From positions 1 through 18,115 of the forward strand of contig JABCSY010000087.1 in assembly GCA_018238625.1 (NCBI GenBank): 18,115 bases of DNA, given 5' to 3'. This DNA comes from Promethearchaeota archaeon (GTDB taxonomy: Archaea > Asgardarchaeota > Lokiarchaeia > Sigyniarchaeales > SOKP01). The position numbers were made by a program, and so were the translations under genes. Below, one piece after another: positions 720 to 16,691 of the stretch (position 1 is the first letter of the stretch; the number at the start of each line of letters is the position of its first letter). The notes beneath the pieces were generated by a model. The model was not told the origin of the DNA. It made no database searches and worked only from the letters and a program-made list of their open reading frames with translations.

Positions 720-2393
720 TTGAAAATGGCTGTAGCTTTCATGCGTAAATTGGAGGAAGAACCAGAGACTTACGATTCGAAGTTTACTTCACTTACGAAA
801 GGAGTAAATGTTAAAGTTCATAATTGGGTATTGGATCAAATTCAATCAGATCAATCAATCTTAGAAATTGGGTCTGGAACGGGCTCATTAGCTTCAAAAA
901 TGGTTTCAAAAGGAAATGTTGTTGTTGCAATTGATAATAACATTCAAATGATTAATTTTGCTAAGCAAAAATACTCAGATACTTTAGAAAATGGTGCGCT
1001 ATTGTATCGATTAGCTTCATTTACGGATTTACCCGTTGAAAAAAGATCCGTAGATGTAATTGTCAGCACATTTCTATTATCAGAACTTCGACCGTTAGAG
1101 CAACAAATATTTCTTAGGAACGCTTGGAAAGCGTTAAAACCAAATGGTCGCTTGATATTAGCCGCAGAGTTTGTTCCATCAGGGTTTTGGAAGGTCAGTT
1201 TTAAAATAAAAAGGTGGTGGTTCAAAAAAAAACTGCGTCGCCTTCGTTTAAAAAGTACTTTTTTAGTTAAATGGTTTTTCAATTACATTGAACCAATAGG
1301 TTTTAGGATCGGAAACCAGAAGAAATGGAAGCACGGTTCAATTCAAGCAATTGAACTACTAAAAATTAACGATAACGGAGAAGACGAACCCGATTATTAT
1401 CGTCCCAAAACAAAGAAGTTTAAAGGAATTATTTCGCAATTGAGAATATATCGATGCCTTTTTACTGGACAGATAGATAGAGTTCCAATAGAACCAGGAA
1501 TATATAAATCTGGTAATCCCAATAACAACTCTCCTATTATCGTAACGGCAAATTACGAGTATACATACATAAAATTAATGCGCGATTTACAAGGTATTGA
1601 TGCGTGGGTTTTATGTTTGGATTCTAATGGAATTAACGTATGGTGCGCTGCTCGCGGAGATGATTTTGGCAACAAACAGCTACTAGAAGCCATTGAAGCA
1701 ACAGATATTCGAGTAATTTCAGAGAAAAAGACTTTAATTCTCCCCCAACTCTCAGCAGGAGGGGTTGCTGTACCTCAATTACCAGAAAAATTTCCTTTCA
1801 AAGTAAAATACGGTCCTGTTTGGTCAAAAGATCTAAAGCAATTTTTATCCGAGCGACCAGTCCGAAAACCAGATTCTATGAAACTTGCCAAATTTACTTT
1901 ATCTCATCGAATTCGCGCTGGAATCACGCACACTACCTTTTTATTCCGAAAAATCTTTTTAATTCCAATAATCGCAATTTTACTTTCGTTTTTCGCCTTA
2001 AATAATAATGCTATCATATGGTGGCTTGGAGAATTAGTAATATGGATCGTTTTGTCAAATGTAATAATATCGATCTTCTTTCCACTCTCTAAATTTAGCC
2101 GTAAATTTATTGTTAAAGCTATATTTTTTGGCTGTCTTAGCATATTTTTTATAGGGGCAATTTCTTGGATATTTCATAGTTCGTATCTTTATTTACTCTC
2201 GAACTTAGTTATATATTTCTGGATAACATTCTTTTCTACGATGTCTTTTAGCGGATACACGATGTCAACCAGTCCGAAAGAAATTCAAGCAGAATATCCT
2301 GTTTTTAGAAAAATAAATCTTACTCTAATAATTTTAGTCGTAATTCTATTAGGAATAAACATAATATTTTTTATGTTAAATATAATAAATTAA
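720..2393 (+). CDS. Fusion: class I SAM-dependent methyltransferase + HgcA-like (CdhD/CFeSP-family) corrinoid domain + ~5 TM helices (start TTG 720 or ATG 726)
   Basis: MTase motifs LEIGSGTG (861-884), VVAIDNN, DLP...VDVIVS, LKPNGRLILAAEF. HgcA-type motifs PIEPGIY..GNP..NSPIIVTANY, WVLCLDSNGINVWCAARG, LILPQLSAGGV, KYGPVWSKDL, then a hydrophobic C-terminus with SFSGYTMSTS..EI..E (cf. HgcA NFTGxxxxTS..GVxxE). Confidence 0.9.
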   Translation: MKMAVAFMRKLEEEPETYDSKFTSLTKGVNVKVHNWVLDQIQSDQSILEIGSGTGSLASKMVSKGNVVVAIDNNIQMINFAKQKYSDTLENGALLYRLASFTDLPVEKRSVDVIVSTFLLSELRPLEQQIFLRNAWKALKPNGRLILAAEFVPSGFWKVSFKIKRWWFKKKLRRLRLKSTFLVKWFFNYIEPIGFRIGNQKKWKHGSIQAIELLKINDNGEDEPDYYRPKTKKFKGIISQLRIYRCLFTGQIDRVPIEPGIYKSGNPNNNSPIIVTANYEYTYIKLMRDLQGIDAWVLCLDSNGINVWCAARGDDFGNKQLLEAIEATDIRVISEKKTLILPQLSAGGVAVPQLPEKFPFKVKYGPVWSKDLKQFLSERPVRKPDSMKLAKFTLSHRIRAGITHTTFLFRKIFLIPIIAILLSFFALNNNAIIWWLGELVIWIVLSNVIISIFFPLSKFSRKFIVKAIFFGCLSIFFIGAISWIFHSSYLYLLSNLVIYFWITFFSTMSFSGYTMSTSPKEIQAEYPVFRKINLTLIILVVILLGINIIFFMLNIIN

Positions 2394-2419
2394 AAAAAAA
2401 AATCATAAATTTGACGAAA

Positions 2420-2749
2420 ATGACAGAATCAAATCAAAATTCATGTTGTAGTGATGGTACTGATGCAGTACAAAATATCTTAAATGTTCTTGGGATTAGA
2501 ATTCTTATTAACGAACCGTTATGTATTGGTTGTGGACTATGTGGCGAAATATGCCCGTTTGGTTTACCCAAATCAAATGATAATGGAAAATACGAAATAA
2601 AGAATCCAGAACTCTGTACTGAATGTAGTGCTTGCCAAAGAAACTGCCCTACTCGCGCTATTATTATGCAAGAGCACGTAGGATGCGGATGTTTGTGGGA
2701 CTCACGACAACGAGCAAAAAGCAAAGGAAACAGTTGTAATTGCTCATAA
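2420..2749 (+). CDS. HgcB-like 2[4Fe-4S] ferredoxin with extra Cys pairs (alternative TTG start 2411)
   Basis: CIGCGLCGEICP and CTECSACQRNCP motifs, followed by AII...VGCGC (cf. HgcB CxECGAC..NCP..AI.V..GVGC). Directly downstream of the hgcA-like gene. Confidence 0.88.
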   Translation: MTESNQNSCCSDGTDAVQNILNVLGIRILINEPLCIGCGLCGEICPFGLPKSNDNGKYEIKNPELCTECSACQRNCPTRAIIMQEHVGCGCLWDSRQRAKSKGNSCNCS

Positions 2750-2780: not shown

Positions 2781-3071
2781 TTGATGAGAACTATGAAGCA
2801 ACAACACGATAGTAAATTAAAAGTAGATATATACGTTCCTTTAGACGCGTGTGCTTGTATATGGGACGATTTTATGAATCGGATGTTTGAAGTGCTTACT
2901 CCTTACATGAAAAATATTGACTACAATACAAAAAACTTAAACTCCGAAGAAGCTCGCAAATTAAAGCTATACGGAAATTGCGTTGTTGTTAATGGTAAAA
3001 TAAAATTTACTAGTTCCTACTTACTCAAAGATAAATTACCAAATTTACTTAAGGAAAAAGCTCTAATGTAG
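2781..3071 (+). CDS. Small thioredoxin-fold-like protein with CxC motif (ArsD/redox-disulfide-like)
   Basis: Beta strand KVDIYVP then ACAC, a helix, and C-terminal EEARKL...VVVNGKIKF resembling small Trx-like proteins of ars operons. The fold is inferred. Confidence 0.6.
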   Translation: MMRTMKQQHDSKLKVDIYVPLDACACIWDDFMNRMFEVLTPYMKNIDYNTKNLNSEEARKLKLYGNCVVVNGKIKFTSSYLLKDKLPNLLKEKALM

Positions 3072-3111: not shown

Positions 3112-3468
3112 ATTAAAAAAATCAATTTTGAAATAAGCATACCAACTAAGGGACTACAACAAGGAAAAAAGTATACCGTTTACGTAAAAGATAACGCTTC
3201 TTTTATCGAAACCTTGGCGATGGTTGACAAATTAGAGATGGAAGTTCCTAAAGAATCAATTTTCCCTATAAATGAAGGGTACATTCACAATTATCTACAG
3301 CTGTTTGTAAATCTCGAAGAAAATTCTATATATGATGATGTCGGAATTTATGCATATGGTCCAGATGAAAATGGATTTATGCGTAGATTTAACCCAATTC
3401 GAGAAAACATAGAATTTAACCTGTATCCAGACAGTGTAATACAATTACAACCAGATGTTGGGTGCTGA
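3112..3468 (+). CDS. Probable beta-grasp (MoaD/ThiS/Ubl-like) protein ending in Gly-Cys; possible selenoprotein (ORF track start 3214)
   Basis: The frame is open from 3106 and GAGGT (3098-3102) lies 9 nt before ATT at 3112. Sequence (M)KKINFEISIP...KKYTVYVKDNASFIETLAMVD...LYPDSVIQLQPDVGC parallels the MoaD/SAMP pattern (...L.DGDxVxIxPPVxGG). Confidence 0.6.
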   Translation: MKKINFEISIPTKGLQQGKKYTVYVKDNASFIETLAMVDKLEMEVPKESIFPINEGYIHNYLQLFVNLEENSIYDDVGIYAYGPDENGFMRRFNPIRENIEFNLYPDSVIQLQPDVGC

Positions 3469-3633: not shown

Positions 3634-3697
3634 AGGCCTCCTAATATGAATGTGAAAATAAGCTAAATTAAGAGTGAAGAAGAGAGATGATGTAAGT

Positions 3698-4132
3698 TTG
3701 AACAAAACTAAATTAATTGTTCTTTGTACGGGAAATTCAGCGCGCAGTCAAATGGCAGAAGCCTTTTTAAGGAGATATGCGAGCAAGCGTTTTGATATCT
3801 ATAGTGCGGGATTTGTGATTAAAGGAGTTAATCCTTACACAATTAAAGTTATGGAGGAAATTGGCTATGATATGAGTAGCCACTACTCAAAATCGTTAAA
3901 TCAATATTTAGATAAAATTCATTTTAAAATTGTAATTACAGTCTGTTCAAAAGCGGAAGAAATGTGCCCAATCATTCCCGGTGTTGAAATTAAATTACAT
4001 TGGCCTTTTGAAGACCCAGCTTCGTTTGAGGGCACAGAGAAAGAAAAAATGCTCAAATTCAGAGAAATTAGAGATAAAATGCATGAGCATGTTAAATCAT
4101 GGTTAAAAGAAAGAGGAATTGTAAATAAATAA
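3698..4132 (+). CDS. arsC: Thioredoxin-coupled arsenate reductase (LMW-PTP fold); alternative GTG start 3674
   Basis: P-loop CTGNSARSQMAEA, resolving cysteines in TVCSKAEEMCP, HWPFEDP, FREIRD. Confidence 0.9.
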   Translation: MNKTKLIVLCTGNSARSQMAEAFLRRYASKRFDIYSAGFVIKGVNPYTIKVMEEIGYDMSSHYSKSLNQYLDKIHFKIVITVCSKAEEMCPIIPGVEIKLHWPFEDPASFEGTEKEKMLKFREIRDKMHEHVKSWLKERGIVNK

Positions 4133-4186: not shown

Positions 4187-5143
4187 ATGGATTTCTTCTC
4201 TCATTTTTTAATTGGAATATTAATTAGCATTTTCACTCTGAATAAATTGAGTTTTAGTATTGTTTTATATGCTGGTATGATGTCTGTTTTAGCTGACTTC
4301 GACATCATTTTTGAACCATTACAATTAATAAAAAAATCAAATCTTTTTGCACATAAAGGGATTTCACATTCTTTTTTTTTCGCGGCAATTATTTCCGCGA
4401 TTACAGGAAGCATATTTTCAATAATTACAGGAGAACTGTTTTTTCTAGCATGGTTAATCGGATTCTTATTTTATAGTATGCACAACATACTCGATTTTCT
4501 TACAGCTTCCAAAATTCCGATATTGTACCCTTTTTCAAAAAAAAGATATCGATTTTTTATAGATAGGGCAATAAATATTTTCTTAGCAGCTATATCTGGA
4601 AGTATTATTTTGTTTTACTTTATAATTTTCTTCCTCTGGCCAGAGTTATACTTTTCAAACTTGGTAATTTTTTTTTTAGGTTTCTACGTCGTGTATTTCA
4701 CTTATCGAATTTTAACCAAAATATGGGTCCAATTCAGATTACCTAAAAATATACATTTCATTCCAGGAATTCTTCCTTTCACTTATATGGTTTACGAAAA
4801 TAAGAAATCAGAGGAAACTATATCATTTAAACTTATTAAAAAATTCCAATTTCGTTCGAAGACTTCTCAATTAATAGAATCTGAAATAAAACTGTTTTCC
4901 AACGAAATGCAATTGTTTGAAAAAGCAGTTTTGTTAAGTAAGAAATATTCTTTTTTTTCCAAGTGGGAATTTATTATACCAGTCATCAAGAAAGACGAAA
5001 AAAACATCATTGTGATATTAATTTTAGCTGAAAGTTTCATGTCAGGTCATGTGTACTCTCTAAAAATTGTATTTGATTTAGTTAAAAATAAAATAGTTAA
5101 TGAGGTTGAAGGTTTCAATTATAGAGTAAAATCTAATAGCTAG
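4187..5143 (+). CDS. YdjM-like membrane-bound metal-dependent hydrolase with C-terminal soluble domain
   Basis: MDFFSH, LADFD, HKGISHS, MHNILD and ILYPFS motifs with multiple TM segments. Confidence 0.8.
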   Translation: MDFFSHFLIGILISIFTLNKLSFSIVLYAGMMSVLADFDIIFEPLQLIKKSNLFAHKGISHSFFFAAIISAITGSIFSIITGELFFLAWLIGFLFYSMHNILDFLTASKIPILYPFSKKRYRFFIDRAINIFLAAISGSIILFYFIIFFLWPELYFSNLVIFFLGFYVVYFTYRILTKIWVQFRLPKNIHFIPGILPFTYMVYENKKSEETISFKLIKKFQFRSKTSQLIESEIKLFSNEMQLFEKAVLLSKKYSFFSKWEFIIPVIKKDEKNIIVILILAESFMSGHVYSLKIVFDLVKNKIVNEVEGFNYRVKSNS

Positions 5144-5262: not shown

Positions 5263-6672
5263 CTATGCATTAAAAGTCCAGCCATCCCAAGGTTCCCCAG
5301 GTAACCCATTTGGAGTCTGATACGTTCCTGTCGCAAGGGAATTTGGATAAACTCCAAGTGGAAGATCTCCAGACGGAACAACAGCCTTAGTCCCGTTAGC
5401 TTGCCACTGAACGAATAATGTATACCCGTAAGGATACCCTTCTTGAATATCATGGCTTACTGTGAAAGCGGCCATTCCACCTGCTCCTTCAAGAGGGGTT
5501 GCTGTAGTAATTGTTTCAAGTGTAGAAACAATTGTATCGGCGTTAAAAGATTGAGATCCGTTAATTGCCCACGCATAAGCATATATAGCATCGTAACTAC
5601 CAACTGCCGTATACAATGGTTCGTGGTTGTACTTAGCAACAAACGCGTTCCAGAATGGAATTGACATTTCTGTTTTACTTGTATTATGTAACGCTTGTAA
5701 AGTTGTTTCGAAAGCACAATTTCCATTAGAATCGTCCCAGAACGTATCTAATTGAGCCTGAACGTCAACACCAACTACGACAAATCCTGGTTCAGCAGTA
5801 GCGTACGAATTCATCATGAGAATTCCTCCTTGCGCTGAAATTACGGGAATCAAAATCTGCGTAGCGTTACCATCAAGTTGGCTTATATATCCATCCATTT
5901 GCGTTTGGGTAACTGTAATCGGATAGGCGATCTCTGTAGCGAGAGTTAGACCGGGAACATAGTACGGTAGAGCAGCTTTCAACCCGTCTACTAAGGGGGT
6001 CGTCCAAGTTAAATCTTCGTAAAGCAGACTAAAACTGTTAATGTTTATCGAAGGATTAGTTGCATTTAAATAAGCTACTGTATATACTAAGAATTGGATT
6101 ATTTCAGCTCCTAAAGAGGACGAATTTATAGGCATATTTCTAAAGAAATATTTATACCTGTCGTAGTTGTCAAGAACATTTTGGCAGAAATCATCCGTTG
6201 CGGAGCCAGTATTAATAAAGGGAATTTTGGCGTCCATAATTACTTCTTGATAAGCTAGTAAAGATTCGGATCTAAACCCTCCAGTAAGGAATTGAGCCCT
6301 CTTATAACTAACAATTCTTTCTGCAGCAGCAACTCCTTTGGTTACATCTAAATTAGGGTTAGATTCGTCAGTATCTTCGGCTGTAATTCCAATGTAATAA
6401 GTTTTTCCGCCAACGGTAACTCCGCCTGCTTGGTTAATCTCGTAGGCTGCCAATTTTGCGCCCTCTAAAGCGCCTGCTCCTTGAATATCGGTTAATCCAC
6501 CAAGTACACCTACCCTGATGATCTGATCTTCTGTTAGTCCTGTTGGTGCCCCTGGGCAATCCTTAGATTCCCATTTATACGGCGAAACAAATATAAAGAC
6601 CGTAATACCAACCACGCTACCAATTACGACGATGAAAACGATAGCTAAAATTCTTTTGGTTAATGGTTCCAT
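5263..6672 (-). CDS. livK: ABC transporter substrate-binding protein, LivK/LivJ-like, N-terminally membrane anchored
   Basis: N-terminal TM helix; IRVGVLG...GAKLAAYEINQAGGV, EDT, GGFRSE, YDAIY; several N-x-S/T sequons; divergent from livHMGF. Confidence 0.88.
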   Translation of the reverse strand: MEPLTKRILAIVFIVVIGSVVGITVFIFVSPYKWESKDCPGAPTGLTEDQIIRVGVLGGLTDIQGAGALEGAKLAAYEINQAGGVTVGGKTYYIGITAEDTDESNPNLDVTKGVAAAERIVSYKRAQFLTGGFRSESLLAYQEVIMDAKIPFINTGSATDDFCQNVLDNYDRYKYFFRNMPINSSSLGAEIIQFLVYTVAYLNATNPSININSFSLLYEDLTWTTPLVDGLKAALPYYVPGLTLATEIAYPITVTQTQMDGYISQLDGNATQILIPVISAQGGILMMNSYATAEPGFVVVGVDVQAQLDTFWDDSNGNCAFETTLQALHNTSKTEMSIPFWNAFVAKYNHEPLYTAVGSYDAIYAYAWAINGSQSFNADTIVSTLETITTATPLEGAGGMAAFTVSHDIQEGYPYGYTLFVQWQANGTKAVVPSGDLPLGVYPNSLATGTYQTPNGLPGEPWDGWTFNA

Positions 6673-6849
6673 TTTTTAATCACTTTTTTGGATAAATTTT
6701 TGTTTAACACTATCTAATTCAGATAAACGTATATTTAAAGCTTTAGGCTTTTTAAAACATTTTGGGTAAAATGTTAGCAGAAACTATTGAGATTTATCTA
6801 ATTAGCATTTTGTTAAAAATTCCACAAATTCAAATCGTTCTTCGCCTAA

Positions 6850-6868
6850 GAAAAAGCTTTTTATATAA
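6850..6868 (+). promoter_or_regulatory. BRE+TATA candidate for livH operon in the divergent intergenic region
   Basis: GAAAAAGC-TTTTTATATAA. A second TTTATATAAA lies at 6951-6960, and a minus-strand TTTAAATA at 6739-6732 could serve livK. Confidence 0.45.
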
Positions 6869-6983
6869 TGAAGTAAAAATATTTTTAACTTAAATTAATT
6901 TAAATTATTAGCAATAATCAAGATCATATTTAGTAAAATAGTTATTTTAATTTATATAAATAATTTCTATTGTGTGGATATAA

Positions 6984-7856
6984 ATGATTGATAGTTTGAT
7001 AAACTTTCTAATTTTAGGCACTATTCAGGGTTCAATTTACGCGCTCCTTGCTATGGGTTTTTCGCTCGTCTATGGAGTTGGGGGTATTTTAAATCAAGGT
7101 CACGGCGCATTTTATTTAATTACATGTTATCTATTTTATTGGTTTTATAAAAATTTTGTAGGTTTTGGATTAATCGCTGGAATGGTTGTAGGATTGGTCG
7201 TTGTTACACTTGTGGGCGGTCTGGTGTATATACTTCTAGTCAAACCTCTGAAAGATAGTCATGTTGGTGTTGTAATTGTGACCTTTGCATTTGCATTTTT
7301 AATAGAACAAATTGTAAAAGTTTCAGTTGATTCGCTTTATCATGATATGCCACTCCTTATTGAAGGATCCTTTGATTTTTTTGGAGTAGATGTATTGAAC
7401 CATTATATTTTGGTAGTAGTAGCTTCTTTAGTAATTGTATCTTTAATTACATTAATTATTAACAAATCTAAAATTGGCAAGTCTATACGAGCAGTTGCGC
7501 AAGATGCCGAAGCAGCCTCTCTAATGGGGATCAATGTTGATAGAATACTTGCCTATACAGTTATGATTTCCGCTTTTCTTGCGGGGATAGCCGCTATTTT
7601 GTATGTCCCAATTGATATAGTTGCACCTCATATAGGGTGGGGCATATTAATTAATTCATTTGCTATAGTGGTCTTAGGTGGTTTAGGTAGTTTGCCAGGG
7701 AGCGTATTAGGGGCATTTATTATGTCTTACGCTAACGCTTTTGTTAATTTCGTTTTATTTATGCCAGAAATTAGTGCTTTAATACCGATAGTAGTAATAT
7801 TGTTTATGTTGGTTCTGAGACCAAGAGGATTATTTGGAAAAAAAGAAATTGATTAG
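6984..7856 (+). CDS. livH: Branched-chain amino acid-type ABC permease
   Basis: GSIYALLAMGFSLVYG...N..HG, GKSIRAVAQDAEAASLMGIN, VVLGGLGS, RPRGLFG. Confidence 0.93.
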   Translation: MIDSLINFLILGTIQGSIYALLAMGFSLVYGVGGILNQGHGAFYLITCYLFYWFYKNFVGFGLIAGMVVGLVVVTLVGGLVYILLVKPLKDSHVGVVIVTFAFAFLIEQIVKVSVDSLYHDMPLLIEGSFDFFGVDVLNHYILVVVASLVIVSLITLIINKSKIGKSIRAVAQDAEAASLMGINVDRILAYTVMISAFLAGIAAILYVPIDIVAPHIGWGILINSFAIVVLGGLGSLPGSVLGAFIMSYANAFVNFVLFMPEISALIPIVVILFMLVLRPRGLFGKKEID

Positions 7857-7889
7857 TATAATTTGAACATCAATCGAGGATTAAAGAAT

Positions 7890-8921
7890 ATGATAATATT
7901 AAAAAAAAAAATAGCTGATTTTGCATCCAATTTTCCGAGTTATATGAGAGATTGGATTTCAACTTTCAGAGCGAAATTGACTATAGTTTGTTTGGTTGGA
8001 CTTTGCCTTGTTCCTTTATTAACTCAAAACGCCTACTTCTTAGGGATTTTTACAACTTTTATGATATTTACCATCTTTGCTGCGAGTTGGGATTTTTTAG
8101 CGGGTTTTGTAGGACAAGTTAGTTTTGGGCAAGCAGTATTTTTAGGTGTTTCGGGGTATGTTACAGCCTATCTAATACGATATTTAAGTTTTCCATGGTG
8201 GATATCTCTCGTGATTGGTTCTATTAGCGCGGTTATTTTTGGATTGATTATTGGAATTCCAGCTCTAAGGTTAAAAGGTCCTTATTTGGCCTTAGGTACT
8301 CTTGCTATGAGTCTAATAATGTATCAGTTATTTCTGATGGGATCATTAGCAACTATGTGGGAAGATGCGTTTGGAACACTCCTATTTGGTGCTGAAGGCG
8401 TTTCGCAGGTTCCACCTATTTCTCCTAATAAAATTGTAGAATATTTTGCAATATTCCTAATAATGAGCGTATCTTTATTAGTTTTAACTCATATAACTAA
8501 ATCTAATGTAGGTACGATTTTTAAAGCAATCAGAGATGATGAGACTGGTACAAGTGCTTCAGGAATAAATACTACCAAATACAAAATTTTGGCGTTTATG
8601 ATCAGTGGATTGTTCGCAGGAATAGCCGGTGGTCTTTTTGCTATGCGTTTTAGAGCAGTAAATCCCGGGATTTTTCAACCGTTATACTCATTTTACGCTA
8701 TTATCATCGCAGCTATGGGTGGTATAGCTACTATTTCTGGTTCAGCTATAGGTGCATTCATTTTTATTTTTCTTGGGGAAATTCTAAGAGAAACGCAAGA
8801 CCTATCGCTATTGATTTTCAGCGTCATATTAATATTATTCATAAGATTTGCAGAACACGGACTTTTAAAACCCACATTAGAACGCATTCAAGAATTGTGG
8901 GATATTCTATTAGGAAGGTAA
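7890..8921 (+). CDS. livM: Branched-chain amino acid-type ABC permease (alternative TTG start 7863)
   Basis: GFVGQVSFGQAVF, LRLKGPYLAL.TL, AIRDDE...ASGIN, FAGIAGGL, AMGG. Confidence 0.93.
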   Translation: MIILKKKIADFASNFPSYMRDWISTFRAKLTIVCLVGLCLVPLLTQNAYFLGIFTTFMIFTIFAASWDFLAGFVGQVSFGQAVFLGVSGYVTAYLIRYLSFPWWISLVIGSISAVIFGLIIGIPALRLKGPYLALGTLAMSLIMYQLFLMGSLATMWEDAFGTLLFGAEGVSQVPPISPNKIVEYFAIFLIMSVSLLVLTHITKSNVGTIFKAIRDDETGTSASGINTTKYKILAFMISGLFAGIAGGLFAMRFRAVNPGIFQPLYSFYAIIIAAMGGIATISGSAIGAFIFIFLGEILRETQDLSLLIFSVILILFIRFAEHGLLKPTLERIQELWDILLGR

Positions 8922-8967
8922 CATAAATAAAATAATTTGTAAAAATTAAATTTTGGAGATTTTTAAA

Positions 8968-9711
8968 ATGGGAGTGATTTTAGAAGTAAAAAATTTAACA
9001 AAAAAATTTAGTGGTTTAACAGCTGTTAACGATTTTAGTTTTGAAGTGAGACGGGGCGAATTTACAGGCTTAATAGGTCCAAATGGCGCTGGAAAAACTA
9101 CATTATTTAACTTGATCTCAGGACATGAAAAACCCAGTTCTGGAACAATTAGGTTCGATGGGCGTGATATTACGGGGATGAAACCTCATCAAATTGTTAA
9201 TTTGGGGATCGCTAGAACTTTTCAACTTGTAAGATCGTTTAGATTTATGACACTTTTGGATAACATTTCAGTATCTTGCCTTTCACCAAGAGGAAAAAAA
9301 GTAGCTAAAGAATATGGGATAGACGAATACGCCAGTTCTATTTTAGCTGCAGTTGGCCTCGTTGACAAAGCAAGAATACCTCCCATAATATTACCTCATG
9401 GCGATTTGAGAAAATTGCAAATAGGAAAAGCATTAGGCACTAATCCCCAATTACTTCTTTTAGATGAGCCATTTAGTGGGCTTTCTCACGAAGAACAAAA
9501 GGGTATAACAGATTTGATAATAAAATTGCATGATGATGGAGTAACTGTTTTTATGACGGGACATGTTTTACGAGAATTAATGCACCTAGTGCCTAGAGTC
9601 GTTGCTATGCACCAAGGTAAATATATAACCGAAGGCCCTCCACAAGAGGTTGCAAATAACAAAATTGTGTTAGAAGCGTATTTAGGAAAAGGAAGTGAAC
9701 AACTTGCTTGA
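8968..9711 (+). CDS. livG: ABC ATP-binding protein (alternative TTG start 8953)
   Basis: GPNGAGKTT, GIARTFQ, LLLLDEP, EAYLG. Confidence 0.93.
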   Translation: MGVILEVKNLTKKFSGLTAVNDFSFEVRRGEFTGLIGPNGAGKTTLFNLISGHEKPSSGTIRFDGRDITGMKPHQIVNLGIARTFQLVRSFRFMTLLDNISVSCLSPRGKKVAKEYGIDEYASSILAAVGLVDKARIPPIILPHGDLRKLQIGKALGTNPQLLLLDEPFSGLSHEEQKGITDLIIKLHDDGVTVFMTGHVLRELMHLVPRVVAMHQGKYITEGPPQEVANNKIVLEAYLGKGSEQLA

Positions 9712-10408
9712 AATGAGAAAAATATATCATTATTATGGAAAAGCTAGAGCTCTCGAAGAGATTAACTTAACGATTGAAGATAGAGCTCTGGATGCCGTTA
9801 TCGGTCCTAACGGAGCGGGAAAATCAACTCTTCTCAGAGTTATATCTGGATTAGAAGAACCAGATAGAGGAAAAATTGAATTTTTGGGAGAAAGAATTGA
9901 CGGCTTAAAAGCTCATAAAATCGCCAAAAAAGGAATAGCTCATTGTCCCGAGCGCCGGCGCTTATTTTACGATATGAGCGTAATGGAAAACCTAGAAATG
10001 GGGGCATATACATTAAAAAATAAAAAAAAGTTTCGTGAGTTATTAGATTTTGTGTTTGAAGTTTTCCCTCGTCTTAAAGAAAGGAAAAAACAAAGAGCAG
10101 GAACGTTGAGTGGAGGCGAACAACAAATGCTCGCAATCGGTCGTGCAATTATGGCAAATCCAAAATTACTTCTATTAGATGAACCTTCGTTGGGTTTAGC
10201 TCCTAAAATAAAGGATAGAATATTTGATGCAGTAAATACGATTAAAAAAGGGGGAACTACAACCTTATTAGTTGAACAAGATGCCATATTAGCAATGGAA
10301 GTTGGTGAAAACATACATCTATTGGAAGAAGGTAAAATAGAAATGAGGGGTACAAAAGAACAGTTAGAAAAAGAACCTCGAATTAAAAAAGTCTATCTAG
10401 GAATATAG
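9695..10408 (+). CDS. livF: ABC ATP-binding protein
   Basis: GPNGAGKST, PERRRLF, FPRLKER..QRAGTLSGGEQQM, LLDEPSLGLAP, LVEQ. Overlaps the end of livG. Confidence 0.95.
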   Translation: MNNLLEMRKIYHYYGKARALEEINLTIEDRALDAVIGPNGAGKSTLLRVISGLEEPDRGKIEFLGERIDGLKAHKIAKKGIAHCPERRRLFYDMSVMENLEMGAYTLKNKKKFRELLDFVFEVFPRLKERKKQRAGTLSGGEQQMLAIGRAIMANPKLLLLDEPSLGLAPKIKDRIFDAVNTIKKGGTTTLLVEQDAILAMEVGENIHLLEEGKIEMRGTKEQLEKEPRIKKVYLGI

Positions 10409-10419
10409 GGTGATAAAAA

Positions 10420-11766
10420 ATGTCAGCTTCTTTAGAACAATTGTTAAGGGATGCAAGAATTGATTTGGTTTTATCAAGAATTGAAAAAGATTCATCCGTT
10501 ATTGGTGAAGTGATAAAAAATATGGATAGTGAAATCCGTTCTATCAAATTTAATTCAATATTTGTGTTAGGTGAAATAGGAGAAAAATCTGGCGAAAATG
10601 CCGTACTTAAAATAACAGAATACTTAGATGATGAAGATTGGAGTATTCGCCGAGAAGCAGTTAGATCTTTAGGAAAAATTGGAAAACTCGCTGAATCCGC
10701 AATACCAAAATTATCTAATTGTTGTTCTGATAATGAAACCTCTATTAGAACTGCCGTAGTTACTTCACTTGGAAAAATTGGTAAAGCTACGAACGAATCT
10801 CTAAATTCTCTTAAAAACGCGTTAAAAGACGAAAACGAAGAGGTGCGCACTAAAGCAGCTGAGGCCTTAAGTTTATTGGGGTCTGAAGCTTTCGAGGTTA
10901 TCTCCGATTTAATGAGTAGCATTAGCGATCCAAGTTGGGCTGTTAGAACCGCTTCAGCACGAGCAATGAGTGGTATTGGAAGAGGTACAATTAAAGCAAT
11001 TCCTACGTTAATAAGTGCACTTGATGACAAAGATTGGAGGGTTAGGTATCATATTGTTAATACACTTTCTCAAATTGGTGAAGCTTCTGTTTCTCATCTA
11101 TTAAATGCCTTAAACCATAAAAACAGAGTTGTTAGAAAATGTGTAGTCGAATGTTTAGGGGAGTTAGATATAAAGAGTCCAGAAATAATTGAAAATTTAG
11201 CGTTAATGTTAAAAGATAAGAAAGAAGAAGTCAGAGGAAAAGCAGCCGATTCTTTACGGACTTTAGGTAAAGAAGCCGTTCCTGCTTTAACTAACGCGCT
11301 TCAAAATGCTAATAAAAGTATGAAAATCGTCATAATTTCTGCAATTGGAGGGATTGGAGTAGATGCGATTAAGGCAATCCCTTATTTGATAACATCGTTA
11401 AAAGGTGAAAAATCTTTAGTGCGCGTAGAAGCAGCTCGAAATCTAGGAGCAATTGGTAAAGATTCAGAGGAAACACTAATAGCTTTAGAAGAAGCTTTGA
11501 ACGATAAAAAAGCTATTGTAAGGAGAGAAGCTGCTCTTTCGTTAGGTAAAATTGGAACCATTTCGGAGAAAGCTATTCCTTCTTTATTAAGAGCGTTAGA
11601 TGATAAAAAACCAGATGTTAGATGGAGAGCGTCTGAAGCCTTAGGAAAAATTAAAATAAACAAGCCCGAGGTAATTTCAGCTTTAAAAGACCTAATTCAT
11701 GACGAATGCGATTATGTTTGCGAATCCGCTGATGTCGCAATAGATAACATTACAGAAAATATTTAA
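10420..11766 (+). CDS. HEAT (PBS-lyase/EZ-HEAT-like) repeat protein
   Basis: About a dozen 31-33 aa units of L..AL.D....VR..AA.(A/S)LG.IG; SD-like GGTGA upstream. Confidence 0.9.
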   Translation: MSASLEQLLRDARIDLVLSRIEKDSSVIGEVIKNMDSEIRSIKFNSIFVLGEIGEKSGENAVLKITEYLDDEDWSIRREAVRSLGKIGKLAESAIPKLSNCCSDNETSIRTAVVTSLGKIGKATNESLNSLKNALKDENEEVRTKAAEALSLLGSEAFEVISDLMSSISDPSWAVRTASARAMSGIGRGTIKAIPTLISALDDKDWRVRYHIVNTLSQIGEASVSHLLNALNHKNRVVRKCVVECLGELDIKSPEIIENLALMLKDKKEEVRGKAADSLRTLGKEAVPALTNALQNANKSMKIVIISAIGGIGVDAIKAIPYLITSLKGEKSLVRVEAARNLGAIGKDSEETLIALEEALNDKKAIVRREAALSLGKIGTISEKAIPSLLRALDDKKPDVRWRASEALGKIKINKPEVISALKDLIHDECDYVCESADVAIDNITENI

Positions 11767-15572: not shown

Positions 15573-16691
15573 TTAAAAACATCGATGGATTACCCCTGGT
15601 CCAATCTCTTTGTATTCACGGCGCGTTATCCACATTCTGCTAAATGTTTTCAGAGAACTTAATATTGAGCCGCCAATCCAAACAGAATACATTCTTTCAG
15701 GAGGAGAAAGTATTCTAACATCGATCGATTCTGGAACCAATTCTTTTATTTCTTTTGTTAAACGCTCTTTAATACCAGGAAACATAGTAGACCCTCCTGA
15801 AAGAACAATGTTACTGTAAAGATCTCGCCTTAGGTCTACATCACATTCAGAAATGGCATCTACAAGGATATTATCTAAAGGATCTAATTCCTTTCCTAAT
15901 ACTGATGGATTAAAAAAGCTTTCTGGTGCTAAAAATCTTTCAATTCCTACATTGATAACCTCTCCATCGGGTAGCATAAAACTTTTCTCCATTCCAGAAA
16001 CTTTCTTTGAGAGAATCATTTCTTTTTCTGGATCAGTGGCTACATAGCATAGCTTCTCCTTAACATCTCTTACAATTTCTTTTTCAGCCGAGGATGTAAA
16101 GGAATATCCCTTTTGCCTTAATAATCTCTGCAAATAATTCGTTACATCTCGACCCGCAAGATCAACTCTCTGAATTGCGTGACTTAAAGCAAAACCTTCA
16201 AAAATCGGTACGATATGAGACACCCCATCTCCAATGTCTATTACACAACCTGTAGTCCTCCCAGAAGCGTACAGCGATAAAATAGCCTGAGTTGCAATGT
16301 AAAGTGCTGGTACATTAAAAGTCTCAAACATAATTTCCGCTATTTTTTCTCGATTCATTCTAGGATTTAAGGGTGCTTCCGTTAACAATACAGGATGCTC
16401 AGAAGGATCAATTCTAAGATCGGTGTAGAAAGTGTAATGCCAAATTTTCTCCATAGCGGGCCAGTCCTCAACAATTCCATGCTCTATAGGAAACATTAAT
16501 CGCATCAGACCTTTTAATTGCATAGCTTCTTCACCAATGTAAAAATCCCGTGAATAATGCCTTACATCTGGTAAAACAACGCCATATTTTGGTTCGCCAA
16601 TTACCGTTGGAAAAACAGAACGAGGTTGGTCTTCTCCAGCATATCCATTCTTAGATATCCCCGTACCATTATCTAAAACAACTGGCTTCAA
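15573..16691 (-). CDS. Asgard actin (Lokiactin-like); true start may be ATT at 16712
   Basis: [99 protein letters not shown]-terminus. Confidence 0.97.

What the first reader, a model, noticed from the sequence alone, without database searches (positions are those of the whole stretch)
720..2393. SAM methyltransferase fused in-frame to an HgcA-like corrinoid membrane protein
Seen: one uninterrupted 557-aa ORF joins a class I MTase (aa ~1-215), an HgcA/CdhD-type cobamide domain with the cap-helix Cys, and an HgcA-like TM anchor. Known: canonical HgcA has only the last two parts, and SAM has been shown to serve as methyl donor for HgcAB. From memory, the N-terminus (AFMRKLEEEPETYD...LTKG) resembles the stand-alone methyltransferases encoded beside HgcAB-like genes (CpaM-type). 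Inference: a Rosetta-stone fusion giving a self-contained SAM -> Co(I)-cobamide -> acceptor methyl relay in an Asgard archaeon.
Basis: partly seen in the sequence, partly recalled or inferred. Interest (0 to 1): 0.9.

Follow-up and report, generated by a model that had tools for sequence, protein, structure and literature searches.

The report
Methyltransferase fused to HgcA-like corrinoid protein
An Asgard archaeon carries one gene that joins a SAM-using methyltransferase to a membrane-anchored vitamin-B12-type protein related to, but distinct from, the bacterial mercury-methylating enzyme HgcA, which suggests a built-in methyl relay whose final target is still unknown.

Summary
Window 720-2393 (+) is one uninterrupted ORF (likely start ATG 726, 555 aa). 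It joins a CpaM-like class I SAM methyltransferase, an HgcA-like corrinoid domain with an invariant cap-helix Cys (NVWCAARG) and five TM helices. An HgcB-like ferredoxin gene follows.

It is not an assembly artefact. 120 of 120 best database homologues carry both domains, and independent contigs bridge the junction without indels.

It is not true HgcA: 180 bits against a cut-off of 275, RG instead of GK in the cap motif, and a separate clade with 100/100 support.

In 201 Asgard genomes, 94 of 97 HgcA-like genes are fused to, or sit directly behind, a CpaM-type methyltransferase gene. All four arrangements occur: M|A|B, M|AB, MA|B and MAB. This is textbook Rosetta-stone evidence.

A complex prediction places the methyltransferase's active-site loop against the loop before the cap helix (score 0.67, best control 0.00).

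Best reading (confidence about 0.6): SAM methylates Co(I)-cobamide, which passes the methyl to an acceptor, with the ferredoxin reactivating the cobalt. The acceptor is unknown. Thiol-rich partners and an ArsC gene in 8 of 14 loci hint at a soft metal(loid).

No paper describing the fusion was found. Databases name it only "methyltransferase domain-containing protein". I rate it a new variant of a known kind.

The parts
720..2393 (+). Fusion gene: CpaM-like methyltransferase + HgcA-like corrinoid domain + 5-TM anchor (probable start ATG 726; stop 2391-2393)
735..1352 (+). CpaM-like class I SAM methyltransferase domain (aa 6-211). SAM motif EIGSGTG lies at nt 864-884. G51, G53, G55, D72 and E122 are invariant in 50 fused homologues. 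There is no conserved Cys set of the ArsM kind.
   Evidence: structural neighbours are class I MTases
1365..1487 (+). Linker and conserved helix (aa 216-256; helix 237-248 with near-invariant C246). It corresponds to the N-terminus of stand-alone HgcAB-like proteins.
1488..1874 (+). Corrinoid-binding (CdhD/CFeSP-type) domain. The cap-helix motif NVWCAARG lies at nt 1635-1658, with invariant C309.
1899..2387 (+). Five predicted transmembrane helices (aa 394-556)
   Evidence: best structural match is the deposited HgcAB model 9a0b_A
2411..2749 (+). HgcB-like 2x[4Fe-4S] ferredoxin (112 aa). It has an invariant GCGCLW after the second cluster motif and a C-terminal SCNC.
   Evidence: directly downstream in 16 of 16 related loci
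2781..3071 (+). Conserved 96-aa thioredoxin-fold protein. An invariant CxC (C24, C26) sits where thioredoxins have CxxC. No family hit.
3214..3468 (+). Conserved 84-aa orphan protein ending in GC. The family is seen only under Asgard MAG names, apart from one row labelled as a bacterium.
3674..4132 (+). LMW-phosphatase-type arsenate reductase (ArsC, thioredoxin type) candidate. This part of the cluster is variable.
   Evidence: present in 7 of 13 assessable related loci
4187..5143 (+). YdjM-family membrane protein (318 aa), the last conserved gene of the cluster
   Evidence: present in 11 of 13 assessable related loci

Best explanation
The gene encodes a natural fusion of a CpaM-type SAM-dependent methyltransferase with an HgcA-like, Cys-ligated corrinoid protein anchored in the membrane by five helices.

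Proposed mechanism:
1. The neighbouring HgcB-like ferredoxin reduces the bound cobamide to Co(I).
2. The fused methyltransferase domain binds SAM and transfers its methyl to Co(I), giving methyl-Co(III) held by the cap-helix Cys309.
3. The methyl is then passed to an acceptor at the membrane face.

The acceptor is not known. The Cys-rich ferredoxin tail, the CxC thioredoxin-fold protein and the small Cys-terminated protein point to a thiol-bound soft metal(loid), or to a thiol-dependent hand-off.

Shown here: the fused architecture, its conservation, the retention of the SAM-binding and cap-helix residues, the obligate genomic coupling of M, A and B, and non-membership in true HgcA.

Inferred: cobamide binding, SAM-to-cobalt transfer by the fused domain, the ferredoxin's role, and the nature of the acceptor.
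For: Architecture and conservation. Both domains sit in one ORF. In one search, 120 of 120 listed homologues (63-71% identity apart from the window's own cluster, 518-578 aa) carry methyltransferase Pfams plus PF03599. In 50 aligned fusions G51, G53, G55, D72, E122 and N306, V307, C309, A310, A311, G313 are invariant.

Coupling. In 201 Asgard genomes, 97 matches to the HgcA model score 128-216 bits (hand count).
- 53 lie in frames of 552-668 aa.
- 4 lie in fused frames cut by contig ends.
- 37 have a CpaM(-like) match directly upstream on the same strand (cross-read).
- 3 are unresolved.
The order M-A-B held in 12 of 12 loci and in 20 of 20 further loci. All four split and fused forms occur.

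Docking. Domains were given as separate chains with SAM. The score was 0.67 (runs 0.68, 0.67, 0.65) and the best of 3 controls was 0.00. That mark was reached by 58 of 80 solved complexes and 2 of 110 mismatched pairs. Runs agree in at least 95% of contacts, and the partner's pLDDT is at least 82. MT residues 124-127, 129-130 and 133 follow the invariant L120/E122 loop. They touch P259-G260, D301, N303 and helix 323-328, next to the cap helix. The single-chain model has pTM 0.86.

Chemistry precedent. SAM methylates the cobalamin of purified HgcAB, with a Cys-ligated methyl-Co(III) intermediate and HgcB as electron mediator (PMC11588087; abstract and Discussion).

Partner. The HgcB-like gene is present in 16 of 16 loci.

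The MT domain has no conserved Cys set. It therefore cannot bind a metalloid as ArsM does (recalled), which fits a cobamide substrate.
Against: There is no biochemical datum for this clade.

The protein is below the curated cut-offs of CpaM (139.5 of 180), HgcA (180 of 275) and HgcAB_like (179 of 285). Transfer of function from any of them is therefore indirect.

Purified true HgcAB uses SAM without any class I methyltransferase domain. A dedicated domain is thus not obviously needed, and it might serve another step.

The nearest structural neighbours of the N-domain are small-molecule and lipid methyltransferases, not corrinoid methylases.

The docking result comes from the model's own confidence. 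It used my own paired alignment, a ligand riding along (outside the calibration) and a cut at a covalent junction, so the contacts at 225-229 with 217 and 224 are trivial.

The cap-helix stretch is not drawn as a helix in the AF2 model and has pLDDT 75-78.

Expression is not shown. The RNA-library contigs are only 90-99% alike and may derive from DNA.
Confidence: 0.6

Rival explanations
1. The acceptor is arsenic. The cluster would be a cobamide-dependent arsenite-methylating or organoarsenical module. ArsC supplies As(III), and the thiol proteins hand it to the methyl-cobamide. This is a special case of the relay.
For: An ArsC-type gene lies in the cluster: TIGR02691 at 136.3 bits, with a CX5R loop and two further Cys visible in the translation. 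It is present in the window plus 7 of 13 assessable related loci. The genome has no ArsM over cut-off (best 57.5 of 263) but does have an Acr3-like gene elsewhere (268.1 of 282.8). The 96-aa partner has a thioredoxin fold with CxC. The ND132 preprint (passages) reports hgcAB co-located with arsC, arsB or arsM in some genomes and raised hgcAB expression with arsenic. One database protein fuses an ArsN2-like domain to a true HgcA (P0162).
Against: arsC is missing in 6 of 13 assessable loci of the same clade. Three of the seven positive loci are near-identical relatives of the window. None of 20 other Asgard M-A-B loci has an arsC, p96, p84 or ydjM homologue at E <= 1e-3. The ArsC hit is below its cut-off of 174.3. 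By established chemistry (recalled), As(III) takes a methyl cation directly from SAM, so a cobamide detour is not required.
Confidence: 0.15
2. It is a genuine Hg(II) methylase, that is an HgcA orthologue that merely acquired an extra domain. This is also a special case of the relay.
For: It has an invariant cap-helix Cys, a 5-TM domain and an adjacent ferredoxin with extra Cys. Its best structural match is the HgcAB model 9a0b_A (E 9e-13). In the careful tree its clade is the nearest neighbour of true HgcA, though support is only 92/76.
Against: It scores 180 bits, against 387-447 bits for the five true HgcA proteins scanned and a cut-off of 275. The cap motif is NVWCAARG in 119 of 120 close homologues, whereas 105 of 150 representatives have NVWCAAGK. 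NVWCAARG is not among the accepted motifs listed by Capo et al. 2022 (passages). True HgcA forms a 100/100 clade that excludes it. Cultured organisms with the related fused HgcAB did not methylate Hg (Podar 2015 and Capo 2022, passages), although these belong to a different subclade.
Confidence: 0.1
3. The methyltransferase domain does not supply the catalytic methyl. Either it only rescues oxidised Co(II) by reductive methylation, as the SAM-binding activation domain of methionine synthase does (recalled), or it methylates the product or another substrate. The cobamide would then take its methyl from another donor such as a methyl-pterin.
For: The organism has the CdhD/CdhE corrinoid pathway and hence methyl-pterin chemistry. 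The N-domain's structural neighbours act on lipids, quinones and a tetrapyrrole carboxylate (8ys9, 4obw, 4qdk). True HgcAB needs no such domain to use SAM.
Against: No methyl-pterin methyltransferase or other donor-side gene is conserved beside the module. Only M, A and B recur across the 20 further loci and across the window clade's cluster. The strict 1:1 coupling and repeated independent fusions fit a stoichiometric partner. SAM is the stoichiometric donor in HgcAB.
Confidence: 0.12
4. The fusion is an assembly or annotation artefact, or a decaying gene.
For: The window is from a metagenome-type assembly of 201 contigs with 7.6% contamination.
Against: The same fused frame occurs in 120 of 120 listed homologues from many sources and in 15 of the 16 related loci that hold the gene's start (L004-L018 and L020; L017 is cut by its contig end, and L019 and L021 begin inside the gene). 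Three DNA runs and one RNA library from four separate studies bridge the junction with no indel. Key residues of both halves are invariant.
Confidence: 0.01

Closest known systems
HgcA/HgcB mercury methylation pair (NCBIfam NF040863, NF040864)
   Same: Both have a CFeSP-type corrinoid domain with an invariant cap-helix Cys, a five-helix membrane domain, an adjacent two-cluster ferredoxin with extra cysteines, and SAM as the likely methyl source.
   Different: This protein has an added N-terminal class I methyltransferase. The cap motif ends RG rather than GK. Scores are well below both cut-offs (180 of 275; 54.5 of 99). It forms a separate clade with 100/100 support. Its ferredoxin tail is GCGC...CNC rather than a terminal CC pair; the HgcB Cys numbering comes from the introduction of PMC11588087. 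Its substrate is unknown.
HgcAB-like fusion protein with its neighbour CpaM, 'corrinoid protein-associated methyltransferase' (NCBIfam NF043039, NF043040)
   Same: The same three modules occur in the same order. The cap motif has the same ...xG ending: NVWCA[AS]xG in 12 Asgard examples. In 11 of 12 loci cpaM sits directly upstream of the corrinoid gene.
   Different: The fusion junction is shifted: here M is fused to A and B is free, whereas there M is free and A is fused to B. Both halves score below those families' cut-offs. The window clade has its own accessory genes (p96, p84, YdjM-like, often ArsC), which are absent from 20 other M-A-B loci. I found no published description of CpaM. The name comes from the HMM library and from NCBI annotations.
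Corrinoid iron-sulfur protein CdhD/CdhE (AcsC/AcsD) of the Wood-Ljungdahl pathway
   Same: The corrinoid-binding fold is homologous: PF03599, and a match to the gamma-subunit C-terminus at 66.9 bits. The genome also has both Cdh subunits.
   Different: This protein has no TIM-barrel partner or N-terminal Fe-S domain. It is membrane-anchored, has a Cys cap helix, and is coupled to a SAM methyltransferase instead of a methyl-pterin methyltransferase.
Cobalamin-dependent methionine synthase MetH, SAM-binding activation domain (recalled textbook knowledge)
   Same: It is a single polypeptide in which a SAM-binding module methylates enzyme-bound cob(I)/(II)alamin, with electrons from a small redox protein.
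   Different: The MetH module has an unrelated fold and works only in repair; the catalytic methyl comes from methyl-folate. Here the module is a Rossmann-type methyltransferase and is presumed to be the main donor-side enzyme.
ArsM arsenite S-adenosylmethionine methyltransferase
   Same: It is a class I SAM methyltransferase, and weak HMM likeness is seen (40.5 bits to the ArsM/AhpD selenoprotein model NF041537 and 39.3 bits to the arsenite methyltransferase model NF008823). There is an arsenic-related gene context.
   Different: The metalloid-binding cysteines are absent: the only frequent Cys in the domain is at position 52, and the window has Ser there. Scores are far below the cut-offs.

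Membership tests
HgcA (mercury methylation corrinoid protein, NF040863) | Whole-protein score over the curated equivalog cut-off (275 bits) | tested here: not met
   180 bits. The five true HgcA proteins scanned score 386.9-446.7.
HgcA | Cap-helix motif N(V/I)WC(A/S)(A/G/S)GK as listed by Capo et al. 2022, with conserved Cys | tested here: not met
   The Cys is present and invariant in 50 of 50 sequences. The motif, however, is NVWCAARG, as in 119 of 120 close homologues.
HgcA | CFeSP-type corrinoid-binding domain (PF03599) | tested here: met
   CdhD at aa 236-346, 51.8 bits against cut-off 24.8.
HgcA | C-terminal domain of five transmembrane helices | tested here: met
   Five helices between aa 394 and 556 in the model, pLDDT 87.2. 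The feature is as stated in the introduction of PMC11588087.
HgcA | Falls inside the HgcA clade in a phylogeny | tested here: not met
   True HgcA forms a 100/100 clade of 25 rows that excludes the window's clade, which is itself 100/100.
HgcA | Hg(II) methylation activity that depends on the protein | not testable with these tools
   This needs an expression or culture assay.
HgcB (NF040864) for the neighbour at 2411-2749 | Two CX2CX2CX3CP motifs, extra C-terminal cysteines, and a score over cut-off 99 | tested here: inconclusive
   Both cluster motifs and conserved extra Cys (GCGC, SCNC) are present. The score is only 54.5 bits.
CpaM (corrinoid protein-associated methyltransferase, NF043040) | Score over the cut-off of 180 bits | tested here: not met
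   139.5 bits over model positions 3-212 of 216. A second Asgard fusion clade (P0135) does pass, with 211.5 bits.
CpaM | Encoded next to an HgcA-like corrinoid protein (implied by the family name) | tested here: met
   It is fused to one. Stand-alone CpaM lies directly upstream of HgcAB-like genes in 11 of 12 loci.
CpaM / class I methyltransferases | Intact SAM-binding motifs (glycine-rich motif I; acidic residue after strand 2) | tested here: met
   EIGSGTG. G51, G53, G55 and D72 are invariant in 50 sequences.
HgcAB-like fusion protein (NF043039) | Score over the cut-off of 285 bits, and a C-terminal fused ferredoxin domain | tested here: not met
   179.2 bits, with the match ending at model position 276 of 350. 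The ferredoxin is a separate gene.
ArsM | Score over cut-off, and conserved As(III)-binding cysteines | tested here: not met
   39.3 bits against 263. There is no conserved Cys set in aa 1-224. The need for those cysteines is recalled knowledge.

The most novel reading that the evidence does not exclude
Coupling to a CpaM-type SAM methyltransferase is the ancestral condition of the whole HgcA family. The mercury methylase HgcA would then be a derived branch that shed the separate methyltransferase but kept SAM as its donor.

On this reading the Asgard module is a methyl 'polarity-inverting' machine. It takes the electrophilic methyl of SAM, parks it on Cys-ligated cobalt, and delivers it as a carbanion or radical to a thiol-bound soft metal(loid) at the membrane. 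That would be a cobamide-dependent route of metal(loid) methylation separate from both ArsM and HgcAB. It would be widespread in the closest archaeal relatives of eukaryotes and would currently be miscounted as 'hgcA' in sediment surveys.
Probability: 0.15. Interest if true: 0.85.

Novelty: new variant of a known kind. Interest (0 to 1): 0.65.

Why it matters
1. The obligate coupling, with repeated independent fusion, of a SAM methyltransferase to HgcA-like corrinoid proteins is comparative-genomic evidence that SAM feeds this whole protein family. It is independent of the 2024 biochemical result and fits it.

2. It gives a one-polypeptide system in which the donor half-reaction (SAM to cobalt) can be dissected by deleting or mutating a discrete domain. 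In true HgcAB the SAM site is unknown, so this cannot be done there.

3. It bears on the old question of what the HgcA family is really for. The Asgard clade carries its own thiol-rich accessory genes and often an arsenate reductase.

4. It is a practical warning for surveys.
- Only 1 of 201 sampled Asgard genomes has a match over the HgcA cut-off. The fused paralogues nevertheless score about 130-216 bits on the HgcA model.
- They could therefore pass the 'moderate stringency' bitscore rule (at least 100) quoted by Capo et al., if their HgcA profile scores these proteins as the NCBIfam model does (not tested).
- Asgardarchaeota are already listed among putative methylators (PMC12484752, passage).
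- Lin et al. 2023 placed Asgard sequences in the 'fused HgcAB' subtree after trimming the first 327 alignment columns. Those columns may have held this domain.

Tried and rejected
Naming the accessory proteins by sequence.
- The 96-aa and 84-aa proteins gave no hit in Pfam or NCBIfam.
- Scanning each of the 15 members of A2 against Pfam at E <= 10 gave only three single-member chance hits.
- Profile searches against PDB sequences returned 0 hits at E <= 10 for both proteins.
- The protein atlas gave only a weak Thioredoxin_3 lead for p96 (0.87-0.88) and nothing for p84.
- The p96 fold was then settled by structure prediction and Foldseek. All listed top hits are thioredoxins or thioredoxin-fold proteins, apart from three low-ranked rows, but the best E-value is only 5e-3.

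ArsD- or ArsE-like identity for p96. I considered this because of the vicinal Cys and the PF13192 lead. No search supports membership, so I call it only a thioredoxin-fold CxC protein.

Resolving the position of the window's clade relative to true HgcA and HgcAB-like.
- The mixture-model 'careful' tree was killed by the sandbox.
- The LG+G4 quick and careful trees agree on the clades but not firmly on their order.
- The AU test does not reject uniting all CpaM-coupled forms against true HgcA (p 0.368).
- The outgroup branch is very long (2.5), so I do not claim a root.

I used a profile search instead, and every organism name that sources attach to the fused hits is an Asgard lineage.

Expression. 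The RNA library X17 covers 25 of 30 bins, but only with contigs 90-99% alike, and it may contain DNA. This is no proof of transcription. The gaps in X1 (1876-2011) and X2 (2216-2283) are uninformative.

Extra Cys at the N-terminus of the ferredoxin (SCC). It is not conserved across loci and was dropped as a feature.

A read-through fusion to hgcB via the 1-base deletion near 2392. The deletion lies in the A-run after an intact TAA, and the frames do not match.

Literature.
- Searches found no paper that describes CpaM or a methyltransferase-HgcA fusion.
- Haft & Gwadz 2023 (PMC9879109), which may describe these HMM families, is not held.
- Supplementary files were not consulted, and those of Lin 2023 and Podar 2015 could show the trimmed N-terminal regions.
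Full report
WHAT IS THERE. Window 720-2393 (+) is a single open frame of 557 codons from a TTG. An ATG lies two codons in, at 726. The identical database cluster is 555 aa (P0002) and homologues start at the matching Met, so 726 is the likely start. The window has 33% G+C, and a frame of this length has a chance probability of about 4e-20.

Pfam finds a class I methyltransferase at aa 48-147 (Methyltransf_11, 55.5 bits) and the CdhD corrinoid domain at aa 236-346 (51.8 bits). NCBIfam is more specific:
- CpaM, 'corrinoid protein-associated methyltransferase', at aa 6-211: 139.5 bits, cut-off 180.
- HgcA at aa 257-542: 180 bits, cut-off 275.
- HgcAB-like fusion protein at aa 255-514: 179.2 bits, cut-off 285.

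The AlphaFold2 model built on 50 homologues is confident (pLDDT 87.2, pTM 0.86). It shows a Rossmann-type N-domain, an alpha/beta middle domain and five long C-terminal helices. Its best PDB match is the deposited HgcAB model 9a0b_A (E 9e-13, 330 columns, 26% identity). Class I methyltransferases follow, such as 8ys9, 4obw and 4qdk.

IS THE FUSION REAL. Yes.
- All 120 listed homologues (518-578 aa; 63-71% identical apart from the window's own cluster) carry methyltransferase Pfams plus PF03599. They come from NCBI, JGI, ENA and Logan assemblies.
- Eighteen Asgard loci in the species-level genome collection encode relatives, and two of them are 93-94% identical.
- Contigs of three DNA runs and one RNA library, from four different studies, cover the gene. 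Several bridge the domain junction (nt about 1362-1485) with no insertion or deletion.
- The only indel is a one-base length change in the A-run that follows the intact TAA stop.
- In 50 aligned fusions the SAM-binding glycines G51, G53, G55 and D72 are invariant. So are E122 after strand 4, the cap-helix residues N306, V307, C309, A310, A311, G313 and the LPQL motif.
Both halves are thus under purifying selection.

WHAT IT IS NOT. It is not a true HgcA.
- The five true HgcA proteins scanned score 387-447 bits on NF040863, against 180 here.
- The cap motif is NVWCAARG in 119 of 120 close homologues. By contrast, 105 of the 150 best 50%-identity representatives of the corrinoid half carry NVWCAAGK.
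- NVWCAARG is not among the motifs that Capo et al. 2022 accept for true HgcA (passages).
- The tree covers 53 corrinoid+TM regions: all 10 fused forms, 13 HgcAB-like, the triple fusion L032, one in four carriers of the canonical motif, all odd-motif full-length representatives, and the genome's own CdhE as outgroup. In it, true HgcA is a 100/100 clade on a long stem (0.86) and the window's clade of six rows is a separate 100/100 clade.
- Its placement as nearest neighbour of true HgcA has only 92/76 support. The alternative, all methyltransferase-coupled forms together, is not rejected (AU p 0.368).
- Two other fused lineages (P0135; P0145 with P0146) branch elsewhere, so the fusion label needs at least three changes on the tree.

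THE ROSETTA-STONE PATTERN. I searched 201 genomes of the window's phylum with the CpaM model and with the HgcA model.

Only one genome has a match over the HgcA cut-off (G025, 436 bits, 9% contamination).

By hand count from the table, 97 further matches score 128-216 bits.
- 53 lie in open frames of 552-668 aa: 42 of 552-591 aa like the window, and 11 of 597-668 aa.
- 4 lie in fused frames cut by contig ends.
- 37 have a CpaM or CpaM-like match directly upstream on the same strand of the same contig (coordinates cross-read).
- 3 are unresolved; G172:C249 lies at its contig's start, and the contig ends of the other two (G055:C13, G160:C333) were not checked.

Direct inspection confirms the forms.
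- In the 12 best CpaM loci, 11 have cpaM immediately upstream of a 357-413-aa HgcA-like ORF. Nine of these have a detectable ferredoxin tail. One locus is a 597-aa triple fusion.
- In 20 more loci the order methyltransferase, corrinoid protein, ferredoxin holds in 20 of 20. For L057 the methyltransferase is known only, and L046 ends before the ferredoxin.
- Eight of these loci (L044-L051) have separate genes: about 216, 325 and 74 aa for M, A and B in seven, while L046 ends before the ferredoxin.

All four arrangements therefore exist in one phylum: M|A|B, M|AB, MA|B (the window) and MAB.

Sources name the window-type proteins 'methyltransferase domain-containing protein'. They name the P0135-type fusions from Thor-, Hod- and Heimdallarchaeota MAGs 'corrinoid protein-associated methyltransferase CpaM'. 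The corrinoid half goes unnamed in both.

SURROUNDINGS. In the window's clade a fixed cluster follows the fusion.
- An HgcB-like ferredoxin is present in 16 of 16 loci that continue past the gene.
- A 96-aa protein and an 84-aa protein are each present in 14 of 14 assessable loci.
- A YdjM-family membrane protein is present in 11 of 13.
- An LMW-phosphatase-type ArsC lies between them in 7 of 13. Three of those seven are near-identical relatives of the window.

The ferredoxin has both cluster motifs, an invariant GCGCLW and a terminal SCNC, and scores 54.5 bits on HgcB against a cut-off of 99. The 96-aa protein folds as a thioredoxin (pLDDT 86.7; nearly all listed Foldseek hits are thioredoxins, best E 5e-3), with an invariant CxC at the start of helix 1. 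The 84-aa protein ends in an invariant GC in its long form. Its family has 489 database members, all 'hypothetical' and without Pfam. Where sources name the organism it is an Asgard lineage, apart from one row labelled as a bacterium.

None of these accessory genes is found at E <= 1e-3 in the 20 other M-A-B loci, so they are specific to this clade.

The genome has CdhD and CdhE. It has no ArsM over cut-off and an Acr3-like gene on another contig.

HOW IT PROBABLY WORKS. Zheng et al. 2024 (abstract and Discussion read) showed three things for purified HgcAB. SAM methylates Co(I)-cobalamin. The methyl-Co(III) state is Cys-ligated. HgcB's two clusters mediate reduction. Where SAM binds in HgcAB is not stated in the parts of that paper that I read.

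In the Asgard paralogues a complete SAM-binding Rossmann enzyme is welded to, or encoded directly before, the corrinoid protein. The simplest reading is that this enzyme catalyses the SAM-to-cobalt step.

A complex prediction with the two halves as separate chains plus SAM supports a defined interface.
- The score was 0.67 (runs 0.68, 0.67, 0.65), and the best of three controls was 0.00.
- That mark was reached by 58 of 80 solved complexes and 2 of 110 mismatched pairs.
- Runs agree in at least 95% of contacts, and the partner's pLDDT is at least 82.
- Apart from trivial contacts at the cut, methyltransferase residues 124-127, 129-130 and 133 touch P259-G260, D301, N303 and helix 323-328. The methyltransferase residues lie just after the invariant L120/E122 loop, which follows strand 4 in the model. 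The other residues flank the cap helix (306-313).
- By recalled knowledge of class I enzymes, the loop after strand 4 borders the methyl of SAM.
- Caveats: this is the model's own confidence, it used my own paired alignment, and a ligand outside the calibration rode along.

The methyltransferase domain has no conserved cysteines, unlike ArsM, so it is not built to hold a metalloid itself.

The acceptor remains open.
- The chemical logic of routing a SAM methyl through Cys-ligated cobalt is to deliver it to an electrophile such as a soft metal ion. This step is inference.
- The many vicinal thiols in the partners fit a thiol-bound metal(loid).
- The ArsC neighbour, the lack of ArsM and published hgcAB-ars links (preprint passages) make arsenic a candidate.
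- However, arsC is absent from nearly half of the clade's loci and from all other M-A-B loci.

KNOWN OR NEW. The pairing of CpaM with HgcAB-like proteins is encoded in NCBIfam models. However, I found no paper in the library that mentions CpaM together with corrinoids (0 papers) or the phrase 'corrinoid protein-associated methyltransferase' (0 occurrences). I also found no methyltransferase domain on HgcA-like proteins in print. In Podar 2015 and Capo 2022 the word methyltransferase does not occur. Lin et al. 2023 note an Asgard clade within the 'fused HgcAB' subtree and removed the first 327 alignment columns as poorly aligned. One possibly relevant paper was not available, and supplements were closed.

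I rate the finding a new variant of a known kind. It is a shifted fusion junction in the CpaM/HgcA-like/HgcB-like module, with clade-specific accessory genes. It is abundant in Asgard archaea and unannotated as such.

VERDICT. The mechanism is inferred (confidence 0.6) and the acceptor is unknown. Interest is 0.65.

Noticed in passing
P0162 (representative; not in the window): A 477-aa protein joins an ArsN2-like N-acetyltransferase domain (63.9 bits, cut-off 125) to a true HgcA (446.7 bits). This is another physical link between HgcA and arsenic genes.
   Followed up: no
P0216, P0260, P0265, P0240: True HgcA proteins, and one HgcAB-like protein, carry N-terminal extensions of 135-190 aa that match no NCBIfam model.
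   Followed up: no
G025:C110:1082-2017: This is the only match over the HgcA cut-off among 201 sampled Asgard-phylum genomes (436 bits, 347-aa frame). The genome has 9% contamination, so it could be a foreign contig.
   Followed up: no
G034:C139:6451-6843: An HgcA-like match has one in-frame TGA directly behind a CpaM match (5677-6345). It could be a break or a selenocysteine codon; HgcA selenoproteins are listed in PMC13188914.
   Followed up: no
L044, L047, L048, L049: In one Asgard family the unfused M|A|B module sits next to a 1152-aa HdrA-like gene and to HdrB/HdrC-like genes. This hints at a heterodisulfide-reductase-type electron supply. The four genomes are kin, so this counts as one observation.
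   Followed up: partly
L006:7611-7832 and 8201-8452; L015:7607-7828 and 8173-8424: The 84-aa orphan gene is duplicated in tandem in two loci. The extra copy lacks the C-terminal GC ending.
   Followed up: no
L020:5001-5399: A second, distant class I methyltransferase gene (29% identity to aa 19-148) lies just upstream of the fusion gene in a 1.28-Mb contig.
   Followed up: no
window 2391-2403: The run of A's right after the stop codon varies in length by one base in contigs of three DNA runs. It is intergenic and has no effect on either ORF.
   Followed up: yes
window 15573-16691 (-): This is a full-length actin homologue (PF00022, 425.8 bits), typical of Asgard archaea.
   Followed up: no
window 5263-10408 and 10420-11766: A branched-chain-amino-acid-type ABC transporter set is present: a binding protein on the minus strand, two permeases and two ATPases. 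A 448-aa HEAT-repeat protein follows, and then come an acyl-CoA-synthetase-like gene, an HD-domain gene and a TrmB-like gene.
   Followed up: no
P0440: One member of the 84-aa orphan family is labelled as from a Nanopelagicaceae bacterium MAG. All other named members are from Asgard MAGs, so this is probably a binning error.
   Followed up: no
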